Below are positions 18,998 through 24,081 of a stretch of DNA of 56,183 bases, one piece after another. Made by a program: the position numbers and the translations under genes. Every line of letters starts with the position of its first letter. Position 1 is the first letter of the stretch. The stretch spans positions 1 through 56,183 of the forward strand of contig DXJV01000061.1 of the NCBI GenBank assembly GCA_019056785.1, given 5' to 3'. Origin of the DNA: Candidatus Heimdallarchaeota archaeon. Lineage in GTDB: Archaea > Asgardarchaeota > Heimdallarchaeia > JABLTI01. The notes beneath the pieces were generated by a model. That model was given only the letters and a program-made list of their open reading frames with translations, made no database searches and had not been told where the DNA came from.

Positions 18998-20296
18998 CTA
19001 AGTCAATACGAAAGAGACCAGTAAAAGCAATGTAGAAACAACCAGATTAGATAAAGAAGCGATAATAGGGACAGAAAGATTGTCGGGATCCAACCCCTTT
19101 TTAAAAACAAAAATAATTAATGAGAAAATGACGAAAAGAATGAGAAGAAACCCAAAACCATTGATTAAGAGAGCAATGCCAAATACAACGCCAATATGTG
19201 CAAAGTCTCCAGCGAAGACTGAGCCCAAGACACCGTAAATGACATGCAATAATAACCCGGCAACACCAACACCAATGAAATTAGGCCATAAGTCTTTATC
19301 TTTAAATGCATGATAAGTAGGAACAATAGACCCCATTGAAAGATGTGTAGATGTAGTGTTTGCGACCATGCTTACTTCATCTCCCAATGTGTCTATAAGA
19401 GCAGGGTAGATAAGGAACAACCCAGGATAGTTTGTAAGCGCCGATCCGGCTTTGCTTAGTATGCCCCCCGTAAGAGAATTGATTGTTAAAGTAATTGATT
19501 GAATGGGAATGGCTTGTTTTAAAATTGCTCGAAATCTTTTATTCTTTGAGAATTTACTTACTAGAACAATAACAAATGTCAAATAGAGAATCACAGGGAT
19601 TAACCCAAAATATACACCACGAGAAATTCGTATCCACTTGCCCTCTGTTGTAAACCAATTTGCGGGTTTAAAAAGGAAGATCAACAAAGCGTAAAATACT
19701 GTGCTTAGAATATTATTAATTGTCGACATCGTCGGATAGACTAGAATATCAGGATTTAATTTACGTTTAAAAACAAAAAAAGCCAAGAGACTTGTAAGTT
19801 GTGATGAGAGCAAAGAGGCCATTGTTAAACTCAAAATGGGGATGACAATAAATGGGAGGGGATTTAAAACACGGCTCGGGCCCAAAGTAGCAAGGTTAGT
19901 GATGTAGGAGATAAGAGCGATCCAGAGAGAGTTGAAAACACCCAGGGTTAAAACCCCAGCCATTAATGCCCAATAATTCTTAGTATTCTTAAAAAGGGAT
20001 GGTTTTATGGAACCAATATGTAAACTTGTTCCGAGATGGCTTGCCAAAACCCCTATCCCCCCATCTGAAGACAAAAGAGGGGGATAAAGAAGAATGATAA
20101 ACGCACTGGCATTCGAAAATATTGAAGCATATTTTAGGAAGGTATAACTGCCAATACTACCTGCCCCTAGACCAAAAACATCAAAAAGAAGGGCGATAAA
20201 TGCTTGAGCTATAATGAGAAAAATGATGCGTAACATTGTTGGTTTTTTGAACCATTCAATAAGGTGGATTTTTCTCATTTTTCCCATTGTACTCAC
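18998..20296 (-). CDS. mgtE: MgtE/SLC41-type divalent cation transporter with two MgtE membrane repeats
   Basis: About 10 TM segments; LASHLGTSLHIG, KRKLNPD, KKGLDPDN. Confidence 0.82.
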   Translation of the reverse strand: MSTMGKMRKIHLIEWFKKPTMLRIIFLIIAQAFIALLFDVFGLGAGSIGSYTFLKYASIFSNASAFIILLYPPLLSSDGGIGVLASHLGTSLHIGSIKPSLFKNTKNYWALMAGVLTLGVFNSLWIALISYITNLATLGPSRVLNPLPFIVIPILSLTMASLLSSQLTSLLAFFVFKRKLNPDILVYPTMSTINNILSTVFYALLIFLFKPANWFTTEGKWIRISRGVYFGLIPVILYLTFVIVLVSKFSKNKRFRAILKQAIPIQSITLTINSLTGGILSKAGSALTNYPGLFLIYPALIDTLGDEVSMVANTTSTHLSMGSIVPTYHAFKDKDLWPNFIGVGVAGLLLHVIYGVLGSVFAGDFAHIGVVFGIALLINGFGFLLILFVIFSLIIFVFKKGLDPDNLSVPIIASLSNLVVSTLLLLVSFVLT

Positions 20297-20337
20297 GCTG
20301 TTTTTTTACTTTGATTTTTTTAAGGGGCAAATAAACA

Positions 20338-20493
20338 TACAAAAGGCACAGCAAATTTGCATGCCTTTTTGTAATTATGAGTGATAGTAATTCACGTAAA
20401 TAACATAATTGAAAAAGTGTGACTTTGAATCACAAGACACCCTTGCCAGAGGTGGCTCTGACATGCATTAAAAACCAAGCACCTATATTTTAA
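20338..20493 (-). promoter_or_regulatory. Putative structured leader/attenuator of the second mgtE: TATA-like box, 29-codon uORF and four hairpins
   Basis: TTAAAATATA at 20493-20484; ATG 20464 to TAA 20375; stems at 20444-20463, 20418-20434, 20373-20410 and 20338-20373. Confidence 0.45.
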
Positions 20494-20552
20494 TGTTTCA
20501 GAAAAAATGATAAATTCAATTAATAATTAATGTGAATAATTTAAAGAATAAA

Positions 20553-21926
20553 TCAAAAGTTTAGGAACGCGCCCAAGATTGTCACAGCCGTTTCGGTAGA
20601 TGCCCCATGAGATGAAACGCCAGGCAAAATGAGAAAAGAGAAGATAATAATAAAGCCCGCACAAGCAAGATCGGCCAAACAAGCTGTAAGAGGGATAGCA
20701 AAATTATCTGGATCAATTTCTCGTTTGAAGGCGAAAATTGCCAGAACATAAATTAGTGAACCTACAATTACATACGCCAAAATATTTGCAAGTACAGTGA
20801 CAATTATCACGAGTACAACATACCATTTTGTAACAATTGTACCCCACTTGATGAATGTGCCAATGACTGCCAGTAAAATTGTAATGGTTATACCCCCTGC
20901 ACCTATCCCTAAAAACTTCAAGAAAACCGTTGGTTTTCGAATGGATTTTAACTCGGGTTTAACATAACCAGCTGAAAAGTCTGTGATTAGTAAATTAACA
21001 GTGATGGCATTTTGATCCACAACTGTCCCAATGAGCGCAGGAAATGCTACGAGTAATTGAGGATAGGCTTCCAATGCCGCCTCTCCTTTCGATAAAGTAA
21101 AACCGGTAATAGTGCCAATAATACCACTTGCGAAAACCGCAAAGATAGATTCTTTCATCATTTTCCGGTATTCATGCTCTTTTCGATTTTTCATAATAAT
21201 GTAAATGATCCCCCCAAGAGACAGAGCAACGGGGATAATAGCGATATATGTTGCAAGCATATCACCACTTCCGGCCTGTGCAGGTAGCCAATAATCTGCA
21301 TCTGGTGCTCCCACTGTCCAAGGTTTTAGAATTTTTAGAATAACAGCATAAATGATTGTTATGAGAATATTATTCACAGTTGACATTACTGGAACAACAT
21401 AAACATCAGGGTTCAAACCTTTCTTATATGTGAAAAAGGAAACTGCACTAGTAATTTGTGTAGAGAGAGTAGCAGCAATCGCCATAACAAGAATAGGGAT
21501 TACAAAAAACAGCGTAGGATTGAGCACTTTGTATTCTGGGGGGAATGTTAAAATGTTCATGAGGTAAGTGACTGTTCCTACGATAAGAGCATCAAGCATT
21601 GCAATAGTCAATGTTGAAGAGACGAGACTTTTATAGATGGGGGTATTCTTCTTAAACGATGGTTTAACAGTTCCTAAATGAAGACCCGTACCAAGTTTTC
21701 CGGCAAGAACAGCAATATCACCCCTCGCCGCCAGAAGAGGGCCGTACATTAGAACCACCCATTTGATTTGTTTGGTATTCATCATAAAACTCGCGATTGT
21801 CCCTGAGATAATGCCACCAGAATCAAACGAAAGAGCTATTACTGCTTGCAAAAAAATCCCAAAAAAGAGATTTACCGCAGTTTTCTTAGCCACACTTGTC
21901 GAGGATGTTGACATTAATTTCACCAA
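20553..21926 (-). CDS. mgtE: MgtE/SLC41-type divalent cation transporter, paralogue
   Basis: PLLAARGDI, KLGTGLHLG, KKGLNPD, REIDPDNFAIP...LADL. Confidence 0.85.
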   Translation of the reverse strand: MVKLMSTSSTSVAKKTAVNLFFGIFLQAVIALSFDSGGIISGTIASFMMNTKQIKWVVLMYGPLLAARGDIAVLAGKLGTGLHLGTVKPSFKKNTPIYKSLVSSTLTIAMLDALIVGTVTYLMNILTFPPEYKVLNPTLFFVIPILVMAIAATLSTQITSAVSFFTYKKGLNPDVYVVPVMSTVNNILITIIYAVILKILKPWTVGAPDADYWLPAQAGSGDMLATYIAIIPVALSLGGIIYIIMKNRKEHEYRKMMKESIFAVFASGIIGTITGFTLSKGEAALEAYPQLLVAFPALIGTVVDQNAITVNLLITDFSAGYVKPELKSIRKPTVFLKFLGIGAGGITITILLAVIGTFIKWGTIVTKWYVVLVIIVTVLANILAYVIVGSLIYVLAIFAFKREIDPDNFAIPLTACLADLACAGFIIIFSFLILPGVSSHGASTETAVTILGAFLNF

Positions 21927-22017
21927 ATTTCACAAAGGGGGTATTGTACAAAGTGCAATTGCACTTTTTCTCAAAGAATTTGACTTGCTTTCAAAGTCAA
22001 ATGTTCAACGTCTAAGC

Positions 22018-24081
22018 TTACTCTGTTTTTGATACTTTTTCAGCTGCCTCTTCAGCAGCTTTCTTTGCGACTTCTTTCACTTCTTTTTCGATAACCTCCT
22101 TGACTTTTTCTTTCACCACTTCTTTTGCGGCTTTAGTGGCTACCTTCGTTATCTCATTTTCAACAACTTCAGAAGCAACCTCTTCAGCTGCTTTTGCTGC
22201 CACCCGTTTACCGGTTCGTTCTACAACCTTTTCAGCGGCTTTCTCAGCAGCTGAGATTGCAACATCTTTAGAAGCATCTTTCACAATTTTTTCAGGTGAT
22301 TCTACAACATGCACTTCTTTAATTGCTTCTGCAGCAGCCCGTTTTGCAGCGCGTTCAGCATCAACTTTAATAGTTTCTTTTACAATGCTTTCTACTTCTT
22401 TTGCAGCCATTTCTGTTGCAGCTTTCTCTGCCTTCTTGTAAACGGTTGCGGATTTTTCTTCAATTTTCTCTTCCGCAGACTCTTTTGCAGCTTGAACTAC
22501 ATCCTTTTTGGCTTCCGCCAGGCTTTTTTTCGCAGCAGCTTCAACAGCATCTTCGAGGACTTTCTTAACTTCCTTTTTATTTGCTCTTAGTTGTTCTGGT
22601 TCTACAGATTCAATGGTTTCTTTTGCCACCTCCTTGGCCAATTTTTTAACCATCTCTTCGGTGACTTTTTCCGTCACTTCAGAAGCGGCTTTAGTGATGG
22701 TTTTTTGAGTGACTTTTTCGGAAACCCTTTCTATAACCTTTGGTGCGATCTCCACCGCGGCTTTCTTTGAGACTTCTTTTGCAACAGCATCTGTTGCCTC
22801 TTCTACGACCTCGGTTATAACTTTATCAACAACTTGTTCGGCTGCTTTCTTCGTAGCTTCCAATTTCGCCTCTTTTTCTTCTACCGCTTCTTCTTCGCGC
22901 TTTTGAAACGCAGTACATGCATCACGCAAACCCGTGAAAATGATCGTGTCTCCGGCTCGTATTTTCGTTCGTCTTCGAGGTTTGAAATAATGCCCACCTT
23001 TTCGTTTTATTGCTAAGACCCTGATCCCAAATTCATCAAGATAATTACCGGCCGGCACAGTTTTACCAACGAGGGGGGAAGACTCTTCAACGACTTTTTC
23101 GAAGATGCTTTCAGCAGACTCACCGATTACAAGTTCAATTATCGGATGAGAGGGGATTTCTGTTAGAACAATTTTTGCTATTTGATTTGCTGAATCAGAA
23201 ATGTTTTCAGTAGCCTCAATTGTTCTTAACAATCCTTGAAGAGAAGTGATATCCTCTGAGGAGGATTTTGCCAACTTCAAGATGGCGATTTCCGCTTTAT
23301 TCCGAATGGTGTCCACCCGTTTTTCCATATTTGAAACGAGTTGAGCCAACTCTTTATTATTATAAAGAACAGCGCCATAGGCAAGATCGACCATCACTTC
23401 ACTTGTGTCTTTTAGTGCTATAAGATAATCTACGATATTCTCAGTAATTATTTGATGGTCAATGTCTTCATCTTCCTCTTCGGGCGGGGAAATTTCTTCT
23501 ACACTGCCACCAACGAGTAACTTGAGAAGGCTGATACCAGAGCTTGAGCCGCTCGCAAGGATGATGTCACCAGCTTGCAGTGCCATATCCTTCTCAGGGA
23601 TAATTAACCATTTTCCGGAACGGCGTATGGCAAAAATCACGATAGAATAATTCATTTTTTCGACGACTTCTGCAACAGTGTACCCTTTCAAAATGGATTC
23701 TTCGGAGATTTCTCCTCGCATTAAATCACGCGCGACTTTTTGGGACAGCTCTTTTATTGTTGGATGGATTACAAACCCTTTAATGAGAACATTTGCAATG
23801 TCTGTTGCGGAATTGGCAATGTCTTTGCTTGCCTGCCCCAAAACAACTAAAGGCAGGGTTGCTTGAGCGTCACGGCCATCACGAACTGCAACTTCAAGAG
23901 ACATGATTAACAAATAATCGAGATGAACAACAAGATCTCTCAACTCTTTAACTTCTTCTGCTAAGTCTTTATCCTCAAAAATAATGGAGGAATACGCGAG
24001 ATCAACCATTATACTACATAAGTCTTTGATTTGTTTGAGAGCATCTTTTGCAGAAATTGGTTCATAGGTGATTTTTGACAT
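22018..24081 (-). CDS. Duplicated PhoU/TrkA-C (RCK_C) regulatory protein with a ~290-aa A/E/K/V-rich helical tail
   Basis: Two KDxSxxMVDLAY PhoU-like repeats, each followed by a TrkA-C motif (AIRRSG..LQAGD; AIKRKG..IRAGD); usual archaeal neighbour of MgtE-like genes. Confidence 0.82.
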   Translation of the reverse strand: MSKITYEPISAKDALKQIKDLCSIMVDLAYSSIIFEDKDLAEEVKELRDLVVHLDYLLIMSLEVAVRDGRDAQATLPLVVLGQASKDIANSATDIANVLIKGFVIHPTIKELSQKVARDLMRGEISEESILKGYTVAEVVEKMNYSIVIFAIRRSGKWLIIPEKDMALQAGDIILASGSSSGISLLKLLVGGSVEEISPPEEEDEDIDHQIITENIVDYLIALKDTSEVMVDLAYGAVLYNNKELAQLVSNMEKRVDTIRNKAEIAILKLAKSSSEDITSLQGLLRTIEATENISDSANQIAKIVLTEIPSHPIIELVIGESAESIFEKVVEESSPLVGKTVPAGNYLDEFGIRVLAIKRKGGHYFKPRRRTKIRAGDTIIFTGLRDACTAFQKREEEAVEEKEAKLEATKKAAEQVVDKVITEVVEEATDAVAKEVSKKAAVEIAPKVIERVSEKVTQKTITKAASEVTEKVTEEMVKKLAKEVAKETIESVEPEQLRANKKEVKKVLEDAVEAAAKKSLAEAKKDVVQAAKESAEEKIEEKSATVYKKAEKAATEMAAKEVESIVKETIKVDAERAAKRAAAEAIKEVHVVESPEKIVKDASKDVAISAAEKAAEKVVERTGKRVAAKAAEEVASEVVENEITKVATKAAKEVVKEKVKEVIEKEVKEVAKKAAEEAAEKVSKTE

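What the first reader, a model, noticed from the sequence alone, without database searches (positions are those of the whole stretch)
20338..20493. Attenuator-like leader of a Mg2+ transporter: leaderless Pro-Pro uORF, hairpin cascade and terminator-like stem
Seen (minus strand): TTAAAATATA lies about 25 nt upstream of ATG 20464, which opens MSEPPLARVSCDSKSHFFNYVIYVNYYHS* (to 20375). The stop abuts a long stem ACAAAAAGGCAUGCA-AAUU-UGCUGUGCCUUUUGU followed by AUGUUUAUUU. Three more stems lie inside the uORF, including UGUCAGAG-CCAC-CUCUGGCA. The wobble pairs are G-U only on the sense strand. Known: bacterial Mg2+ transporters are controlled by M-box riboswitches or proline-codon leader peptides (Salmonella mgtL, mgtP); I know of no archaeal equivalent. 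Inference: Mg2+- or translation-sensing attenuation in an archaeon.
Basis: partly seen in the sequence, partly recalled or inferred. Interest (0 to 1): 0.7.

Follow-up and report, generated by a model that had tools for sequence, protein, structure and literature searches.

The report
Long structured leader of archaeal mgtE
The gap between two tandem magnesium-transporter-like genes of a Heimdall (Asgard) archaeon holds a conserved promoter and probably a long 5' leader with one strong RNA hairpin at a conserved position, but the proposed proline mini-gene is not conserved in relatives, so a leader-peptide attenuator is unlikely.

Summary
Only part of it exceeds chance.

- **Stems:** the long stem (20373-20338, -15.1 kcal/mol, z -3.8) is real. 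The stem over the ATG is marginal (z -1.9). The other two stems are at chance.
- **Mini-gene:** a 29-codon ATG frame turns up in 35% of shuffled spacers.
- **Promoter:** the AT box TGAAACATTAAAATA (20500-20486) matches this organism's own tRNA promoters. It is conserved, on the same strand, 198-234 nt before the start in eight leaders of seven congeneric genomes and further out in a ninth (eight genomes in all). A separate promoter and a leader of about 175 nt are therefore likely.
- **uORF conservation:** none of seven other leaders checked has an ATG at the predicted transcript start, and no shared reading frame was found.
- **Hairpin conservation:** every orthologue has a hairpin at the same place, about -86 to -43 from the start. 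The stems fall into three unrelated sequence classes. One class, a GGAGAUAG..UUCC/GGAA..UCUCU motif, occurs in seven copies with covariation.
- **Terminator tail:** the U-rich tail is kept in only two of the other leaders.
- **Known families:** no Rfam family matches.
- **Transcripts:** no RNA data could be found.

Verdict: this is a plausible new cis-acting leader of SLC41-like MgtE genes in one Heimdallarchaeota genus. Magnesium- or proline-sensing attenuation is unsupported.

The parts
20553..21914 (-). Upstream MgtE-like paralogue. It has two PF01769 stretches and no CBS or MgtE_N domain. The start is probably ATG 21914, preceded by the ribosome-binding motif GGUGA; the longest frame starts at TTG 21926.
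20502..20507 (-). T6 run 46 nt after the upstream gene's stop (TGA 20555-20553). It is a candidate archaeal oligo-T terminator for the upstream gene. T4-T6 runs lie between the stop and the box in the orthologous spacers too.
   Evidence: read from the sequence; the role is inferred
20486..20500 (-). BRE/TATA-like promoter box TGAAACATTAAAATA. It occurs once in this genome. It is conserved before mgtE-like genes in eight genomes of the genus and matches the tRNA promoter consensus (C/A)GAAAG-N-TTTAAAA of this MAG.
20462..20466 (-). Predicted transcription start, about 23 nt after the last base of the TATA octamer, at the C-A step at 20465/20464. Not measured.
   Evidence: inferred from archaeal promoter geometry
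20375..20464 (-). 29-codon ATG frame (MSEPPLARVSCDSKSHFFNYVIYVNYYHS*). It is specific to this lineage and kept, with V24L, in a near-identical strain. Probably not functional.
20444..20463 (-). Hairpin H1, UGUCAGAG-CCAC-CUCUGGCA, at the predicted 5' end. It covers the last two bases of the AUG. It is marginally above chance and more stable on the sense strand.
20338..20373 (-). Hairpin H2 (the 'long stem'), 15 pairs with two bulges and loop AAUU, at -86 to -51 from ATG 20287. This is the position of the hairpins in all orthologous leaders. Other strains carry a 14-nt insertion in its apex and keep the stem.
20324..20335 (-). TTTATTTGCCCC block. It is the U-rich tail of H2 and is shared with G010 and G008 (TTATTTGCCC) in otherwise unalignable leaders.
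20297..20323 (-). A-rich linker predicted to be mostly unpaired. Its length varies between strains (+4 nt in run X11).
18998..20296 (-). Downstream MgtE-like paralogue. The ribosome-binding-like GUGAGU lies at 20296-20291. The start is probably ATG 20287, the 429-aa form on record as P0001; GTG 20296 and ATG 20278 are alternatives.
21950..22000 (-). Two hairpins in the short leader of the upstream paralogue: A at 22000-21980 and B at 21967-21950 (AAAGUGCAAUUGCACUUU). Both are kept in position, with different stems, in G002 and G003.

Best explanation
The spacer is the promoter and long 5' leader of the second SLC41-like MgtE paralogue.

RNA polymerase most likely starts about 23 nt after the conserved BRE/TATA box (20500-20486), at about 20464. 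This step is inferred. The resulting leader of about 175 nt begins with a small stem-loop (H1) and carries one strong stem-loop (H2, 20373-20338) at -86 to -51 from the start codon. An A-rich, open stretch and the ribosome-binding site follow.

H2 is the part under selection. A hairpin sits at this position in every orthologous leader although the stem sequences are unrelated. That points to a structure-dependent role acting on the RNA, not to a sequence-specific protein site. The role most consistent with all species is control of the transcript after initiation. H2 could be a pause or leaky stop site for RNA polymerase (in this lineage it is followed by a U-rich tract), or a barrier that sets the stability or processing of the mgtE message. 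Which of these applies, and what signal if any modulates it, is unknown.

The 29-codon frame is most likely a lineage-specific accident, created because an ATG happens to lie at the transcript start.
For: **Promoter**
- The box equals the tRNA promoter consensus of this genome.
- It occurs once in the genome.
- It is the best conserved block of the spacer.
- It lies on the gene's strand 198-234 nt before the start in eight leaders, and further upstream in G009 copy 2.
- In the other families of the class it occurs at about background rate and not next to their mgtE homologues.

**Leader length**
- Ribosome-binding motifs peak at -15 to -10 in this genome. TATA-like words lie mostly within 90 nt of start codons, so a box about 200 nt out is unusual.

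**Constraint**
- Between close relatives the leaders are 81-92% identical over aligned columns. Four-fold synonymous sites of the adjacent gene are 67-72% identical.

**H2**
- z -3.8, with 0 of 200 shuffles as good.
- It ranks in the top 1.3% of upstream regions of this genome.
- It spans -86 to -51. The hairpins of G006 and G010 span -84/-86 to -46, that of G004 ends at -43, and that of G009 copy 2 spans -111 to -73.
- The relatives' hairpin motif (model R1) shows 90% of cells paired, five pairs with compensatory changes, and a covariation score of 0.44 against 0.24 in shuffles, with 0 of 500 shuffles reaching it.
- R1 is found at E<1e-3 before mgtE-like genes, apart from one hit in G011 whose context was not resolved.
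- A 14-nt insertion in the apex of H2 in other strains keeps and lengthens the stem (-17.0 against -15.1 kcal/mol).

**Upstream gene**
- It has its own T-run before the box.
Against: - No transcript data exist. No RNA run holds the locus, so the start site, the leader and any 3' end at H2 are all inferred.
- A second, proximal promoter cannot be excluded, because AT-rich TATA-like words lie between H2 and the start in all species.
- The stretch between the upstream stop and the box is as conserved as the leader, so the constraint is not specific to the transcribed part.
- The U-rich tail is missing in G002, G003, G006, G004 and G009, which weakens a termination role.
- The hairpins are palindromes in DNA as well, and the antisense strand folds nearly as well.
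- The R1 covariation was counted on only seven related copies, in an alignment fitted to the model.
- H2 of the window does not match R1, so the equivalence is by position only.
Confidence: 0.5

Rival explanations
1. One reading: a leader-peptide attenuator. A leaderless mRNA starting at AUG 20464 is translated. Ribosome progress through Pro-Pro (codons 4-5) to the stop, which abuts H2, decides whether H2 plus its U-rich tail forms and stops transcription, or whether the ribosome-binding site is freed.
For: - The TATA geometry puts the start at the A of the ATG.
- The stop lies 1 nt before H2, so a terminating ribosome would open its 5' arm.
- H2 is followed by a tract with 12 U in 17 nt.
- In one predicted ensemble the last codons (CACUCAU) pair with the ribosome-binding motif GUGAGU, with H2 nested inside.
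- The frame is intact in a second strain.
Against: - There is no ATG at +13 to +34 from the box in seven other leaders, and no shared frame or Pro codons in any of the nine.
- The frame length is reached in 35% of shuffles.
- The AUG sits in a stem of -10.2 kcal/mol with pairing probability 0.97. This is unfavourable for leaderless initiation.
- Pairing of the ribosome-binding site this strong occurs in 5-11% of shuffled leaders. Its partner changes with the 3' end of the fold and differs in every orthologue.
- The second strain differs by only one base in the frame, and that change is non-synonymous (V24L), so the comparison carries no information.
- From my own knowledge, leader-peptide attenuation has not been shown in any archaeon.
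Confidence: 0.07
2. The box drives an independent small RNA of about 125-135 nt that ends at H2 and its U-rich tail. The transporter gene has its own proximal promoter.
For: - The promoter is conserved, and a hairpin lies at a fixed distance of about 110-150 nt from it.
- A U-rich tract follows H2 in the window, G010 and G008.
- The TTTATTTG just after H2 could double as a weak TATA box.
Against: - There is no T-run after the hairpin in G002, G003, G006, G004 or G009.
- The hairpin keeps its distance to the start codon (-86 to -43), which ties it to the downstream gene.
- No BRE-like GAAA precedes the proximal AT words.
- In G009 the whole unit (box, hairpin and gene) was duplicated together.
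Confidence: 0.12
3. The hairpins are DNA palindromes bound by a dimeric transcription factor (an operator or roadblock between promoter and gene), not RNA structures.
For: - H2 and R1 are inverted repeats that fold almost equally well on both strands.
- The R1 core TTCC..GGAA is invariant.
Against: - Three unrelated stem sequences occupy the same position within one genus.
- Compensatory changes extend into the loop-proximal part of R1.
- Strains differ by a 14-nt insertion between the two arms of H2. This would change half-site spacing by more than one helical turn, yet it keeps the RNA stem.
Confidence: 0.1
4. H2 is the terminator or 3'-end stabiliser of the upstream paralogue's transcript.
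For: - It is a hairpin plus a U-rich tail downstream of a gene on the same strand.
- Hairpins also follow the PhoU/TrkA_C gene in the next spacer.
Against: - H2 lies 180 nt after the stop, beyond a T6 run and a conserved promoter.
- Its distance to the upstream stop varies from about 170 to 290 nt among orthologues, while its distance to the downstream start is fixed.
- From my own knowledge, archaeal termination needs oligo-T runs and not hairpins.
Confidence: 0.05

Closest known systems
mgtL / mgtA leader of Salmonella and E. coli (Rfam Mg_sensor, RF01056)
   Same: A long leader before a magnesium-transporter gene, a short frame with proline codons, and stem-loops after it.
   Different: It is a bacterial system. 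Its uORF and stems are conserved among orthologues, whereas here the uORF is found in one lineage only. The Rfam model does not match. The gene family differs: mgtA is a P-type ATPase.
mgtP / mgtCBR leader of Salmonella (consecutive proline codons; from my own knowledge)
   Same: The idea that ribosome speed at Pro-Pro sets the formation of a downstream stem.
   Different: There is only one Pro-Pro pair, it is not conserved, and nothing shows that it is translated.
M-box (ykoK) magnesium riboswitch, RF00380, which controls many bacterial mgtE genes (PMC9276622)
   Same: A cis-acting leader before an MgtE-family gene. These archaeal proteins lack the cytosolic CBS sensor, so control of expression would make sense.
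   Different: No match to the covariance model in the window or in seven orthologous loci. No aptamer-like core is conserved between species groups.
Leaderless polycysteine uORF attenuators of mycobacteria (bioRxiv 10.1101/834739)
   Same: A leaderless short frame at the 5' end of an operon transcript acts as a sensor of translation.
   Different: Those frames are conserved and enriched in the sensed codon. Here there is no conservation, and the AUG is predicted to be paired.
R1 hairpin motif of the congeneric Heimdallarchaeota
   Same: The same position (-86 to -46) in the same leader of the orthologous gene, downstream of the same promoter box.
   Different: The window's H2 has an unrelated sequence and does not match the model; the best hit anywhere in the window is E 0.9 and lies elsewhere.

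Membership tests
Leader-peptide attenuator (mgtL/mgtP type) | Short upstream frame conserved in orthologous leaders | tested here: not met
   No ATG at +13 to +34 from the box in seven other leaders. No shared frame in nine leaders of eight genomes.
Leader-peptide attenuator (mgtL/mgtP type) | Conserved regulatory (proline) codons | tested here: not met
   Pro-Pro occurs only in the window's frame. Frames seen elsewhere (for example MEIVF.. in group B) shift with a 1-nt indel and overlap the hairpin.
Leader-peptide attenuator (mgtL/mgtP type) | Terminator (stem plus U-run) directly after the frame | tested here: inconclusive
   The stem is real (z -3.8) and has a tail with 12 U in 17 nt. The tail is kept only in G010 and G008 and is missing in five other genomes. 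Archaeal terminators do not need hairpins (from my own knowledge).
Leader-peptide attenuator (mgtL/mgtP type) | Mutually exclusive alternative pairing coupled to ribosome position | tested here: inconclusive
   One predicted helix joins the last codons to the ribosome-binding site. It is at chance level and not conserved.
Leader-peptide attenuator (mgtL/mgtP type) | The frame is translated and the transcript starts at its AUG | not testable with these tools
   No RNA run holds the locus.
M-box riboswitch (RF00380) and Mg_sensor (RF01056) | Match to the Rfam covariance model | tested here: not met
   No such hit at E<=10 in 19800-21000. No hit at E<=0.5 in seven orthologous loci.
Archaeal BRE/TATA promoter | BRE plus TATA matching the organism's own promoters, conserved in orthologues | tested here: met
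   The box is like the tRNA-Glu and tRNA-Gly promoters of this MAG. It is conserved in nine leaders.
Archaeal BRE/TATA promoter | Transcription start about 23 nt after the TATA box | not testable with these tools
   No RNA data.
R1 leader hairpin of congeneric mgtE-like genes | Match to covariance model R1 | tested here: not met
   No hit in 20297-20552 with filters off. The best hit in the window has E 0.9 and lies elsewhere.
R1 leader hairpin of congeneric mgtE-like genes | Hairpin at about -85 to -45 from the start, downstream of the conserved box | tested here: met
   H2 spans -86 to -51. G006 spans -84 to -46 and G010 spans -86 to -46.
Double-domain MgtE / SLC41-like transporter | Two MgtE membrane domains, no CBS or MgtE_N domain | tested here: met
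   PF01769 matches in two stretches in both proteins and no other family matches. The archaeal double-motif type is described in PMC9276622. Magnesium transport itself was not tested.

The most novel reading that the evidence does not exclude
One genus of Heimdallarchaeota controls its SLC41-like (sensor-less) MgtE genes through an undescribed cis-acting RNA leader. A dedicated promoter gives a constrained leader of about 170-210 nt, whose stem-loop at -86 to -46 (the R1 motif in most species, the unrelated H2 in this one) gates transcript completion or stability in response to a cellular signal such as Mg2+. This would be the first Mg-transporter leader control known in archaea.
Probability: 0.2. 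Interest if true: 0.6.

Novelty: new member of a known kind. Interest (0 to 1): 0.33.

Why it matters
Few cis-acting RNA controls are known in archaea, and I know of none described for Asgard archaea or for archaeal magnesium transporters. The MgtE-like proteins here are the double-domain type shared with eukaryotic SLC41. They lack the built-in cytosolic Mg2+ sensor, so control of expression is a reasonable expectation.

A conserved promoter, a long leader and a hairpin fixed in position make a concrete, testable candidate. The result also shows that the attractive uORF reading does not survive comparison with relatives. Practically, the promoter consensus derived here, (C/A)GAAAG-N-TTTAAAA, helps in reading other Heimdallarchaeota loci.

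Tried and rejected
- **Rfam:** the spacer and seven orthologous loci gave nothing near any gathering score. The best hits were RsaF and Phe_leader on the opposite strand, far below threshold.
- **tRNA or tmRNA in the window:** none.
- **Repeat element:** the spacer is unique in the genome. The H2-like pattern is not a repeated family.
- **Box as a regulon signal:** exact matches in 83 genomes of the class run at about background and are not next to mgtE outside the genus.
- **More orthologous leaders:**
  - The metagenome scan returned only the window's own contig.
  - The first genome-contig scan found nothing, and the second returned the seven loci already held.
The contigs of about 25 further homologues, including the 84%-identical P0002, could therefore not be fetched.
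- **Expression:** no RNA holder was listed.
- **Strain variation:** it was too small to test the frame, with one substitution in 90 nt.
- **Hiding of the ribosome-binding site:** predicted in the window, but at chance and not conserved.
- **Short frames of the spacer:** Pfam found nothing for either strand.
- **Similarity between H2 and hairpin B of the upstream leader:** both read AAAAAG..GC core..CUUUUGU, but this is loose and was not pursued as homology.
- **Earlier scan notes on Mg-transporter leader peptides:** all concern bacteria.

Full report
**Where it is.** The finding lies in the 256-nt spacer (20297-20552, minus strand) between two tandem paralogues. Each has two PF01769 (MgtE membrane domain) stretches and no MgtE_N or CBS domain. 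This is the double-motif archaeal/SLC41-like type described in PMC9276622. No NCBIfam family and no solved structure matches by sequence. Record titles of the orthologous loci place the genus in Candidatus Heimdallarchaeota. Near-identical DNA occurs in hydrothermal-vent and marine-sediment metagenomes. The order PhoU/TrkA_C protein, mgtE-like 1, mgtE-like 2 is kept in the genus, and one genome (G009) has three tandem copies.

**Check of the observation.**
- The long stem, here called H2 (20373-20338), folds at -15.1 kcal/mol with z -3.8, and none of 200 shuffles does as well.
- H2 is in the top 0.2% of 40-nt windows of the 56-kb window.
- Only 1.3% of 609 upstream regions of this genome hold an equally strong hairpin at -105 to -30.
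- The stem that covers the ATG, H1 (20463-20444), is marginal (z -1.9) but is 3 kcal/mol better on the sense strand.
- The two stems in the middle are at chance.
- The whole spacer is only about 2 sd more stable than shuffles, on either strand.
- A 29-codon ATG frame appears in 35% of shuffled spacers.
- So one stem is solid, one is possible, and the 'cascade' and the frame are not above chance by themselves.

**The promoter.**
- The block TGAAACATTAAAATA (20500-20486) is the best conserved part of the spacer.
- TGAAA[C/G]ATT[A/C]A[A/T]ATA is present on the gene's strand in G002, G003, G004, G006, G008, G010 and twice in G009. It lies 198-234 nt before the start in eight leaders including the window's, and further out before G009 copy 2.
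- It occurs once in the window's genome.
- Upstream regions of this MAG's tRNA genes give the promoter consensus (C/A)GAAAG-N-TTTAAAA. The tRNA-Glu promoter, AGAAAGATTTAAAAT, is almost the same as the box.
- By standard archaeal geometry the transcript would begin about 23 nt after the TATA octamer, at the C-A step at 20465/20464.
- In this genome ribosome-binding motifs peak at -15 to -10, and TATA-like words lie mostly within 90 nt of starts. A promoter about 200 nt out therefore implies an unusually long leader.
- A T6 run (20507-20502) lies between the upstream stop and the box, and T4-T6 runs lie there in the orthologues. The upstream gene probably ends before the promoter.

**The uORF.**
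- None of seven other leaders checked has an ATG within +13 to +34 of the box. No frame or Pro-Pro is shared among the nine leaders.
- Short frames that do occur elsewhere are not kept even between close relatives. Examples are MEIVF.. in G002 and G006, which changes frame in G003, and a TTG frame in G010 that is stopped at once in G008.
- The AUG is predicted to be paired within H1.
- A strain in run X11 keeps the frame with one non-synonymous change (V24L, 20395). With only two substitutions in the whole spacer this says nothing either way.

**The hairpin.**
- Every orthologous leader has a hairpin at the same place relative to the start codon:
  - window: -86 to -51
  - G006: -84 to -46
  - G010: -86 to -46
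  - G004: GCUGGAA-AUUUUG-UUCCAGC, ending at -43
  - G009 copy 2: -111 to -73
- In five relatives, and twice in G009, it is one motif: GGAGAUAG-[UUCC..loop..GGAA]-UUUCUCUC.
- A covariance model of this motif (R1) finds it at E<1e-3 before mgtE-like genes in the family, apart from one hit in G011 whose context was not resolved.
- On the seven copies, 90% of cells pair and five pairs show compensatory changes. The covariation score is 0.44 against 0.24 in shuffles (0 of 500 reach it), and the slid controls score far lower. The caveats are that the copies are few and related, and the alignment was fitted to the model.
- The window's H2 and G004's hairpin do not match R1. Three unrelated stems therefore occupy one position.
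- In other strains (runs X11 and X9) a 14-nt insertion sits in the apex of H2. The outer stem is untouched, and the variant folds into a longer stem (-17.0 kcal/mol).
- These points favour a structure-dependent role in RNA over a sequence-specific DNA operator.
- Leaders of close relatives are 81-92% identical over aligned columns, against 67-72% at four-fold sites of the adjacent gene. The stretch before the box is about as conserved as the leader.

**What H2 does.** This is not shown.
- In the window, G010 and G008 a U-rich block follows the hairpin, with TTATTTGCCC shared by all three. This would suit pausing or leaky termination by archaeal RNA polymerase.
- The other five genomes lack that tail.
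- The ribosome-binding site of the window is predicted to pair with the last codons of the frame, across H2. Equally strong pairing occurs in 5-11% of shuffled leaders. The partner changes with the 3' end of the fold and differs in every orthologue.
- I therefore commit only to this: a dedicated promoter, a long constrained leader, and a stem-loop fixed in position that acts on the transcript as a pause or leaky stop, or as a stability or processing barrier.
- The uORF is incidental. The rival explanations are weighed in their own section.

**Surroundings.**
- The short leader of the upstream paralogue (22017-21915) also holds two hairpins. Their positions, but not their stems, are kept in G002 and G003, after a conserved ATTGAACAT.
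- Hairpin B there ends 35 nt before the start.
- A hairpin some 35-50 nt before the start is thus common to the mgtE-like genes of this cluster.

**Comparison with known systems.**
- The arrangement resembles bacterial Mg-transporter leaders (mgtL/mgtA, mgtP/mgtCBR, M-box) only in outline.
- The defining features of a leader-peptide attenuator were tested and not met: a conserved frame and conserved regulatory codons.
- The Rfam models for M-box and Mg_sensor do not match.
- Earlier notes of this scan describe proline leader frames before bacterial Mg-transporter genes that were accepted because they are conserved. That criterion fails here.

**Limits.**
- No RNA data were available.
- There are only eight genomes with nine leaders, and they fall into about four lineages.
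- The nearest relatives could not be fetched.

Noticed in passing
L047-L052 and L058 (e.g. G006:C140:15627-15673, G009:C48:20616-20664 and 22275-22321): An undescribed two-tier hairpin motif (R1: GGAGAUAG-[UUCC..loop..GGAA]-UUUCUCUC) precedes mgtE-like genes in six congeneric Heimdallarchaeota genomes, in seven copies. It shows compensatory changes and has no Rfam match. In group B its pyrimidine arm can alternatively pair with the ribosome-binding sequence AGAGGAG.
   Followed up: partly
window 21950-22017 (minus strand): The leader of the upstream paralogue has two hairpins, at 22000-21980 and 21967-21950. Both are kept in position with different stems in G002 and G003. ATTGAACAT is conserved right after the stop of the PhoU/TrkA_C gene.
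   Followed up: partly
window 20338-20373; runs X11 and X9: A natural 14-nt insertion/deletion polymorphism sits in the apex of the long hairpin. The A-runs at 20300 and 20309 also vary in length between strains.
   Followed up: yes
window 18998-21926 and 22018-24081: The two tandem MgtE-like genes are of the double-domain SLC41-like type without a CBS sensor. One congener has three copies. A 687-aa protein with PhoU and TrkA_C domains always lies just upstream, which suggests a functional cluster.
   Followed up: partly
whole genome G000 (tRNA upstream regions, e.g. C11:106063, C88:27468): The tRNA genes give a clear promoter consensus, (C/A)GAAAG-N-TTTAAAA, about 30-35 nt before the mature 5' end. 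Ribosome-binding motifs peak at -15 to -10, so translation with a leader is common in this Heimdallarchaeon. ARAGORN found only 14 tRNA genes in the 82% complete MAG.
   Followed up: partly
L010 1-14 (G004:C48): The contig of G004 begins exactly inside the conserved promoter box, so its upstream paralogue is not assembled there.
   Followed up: no
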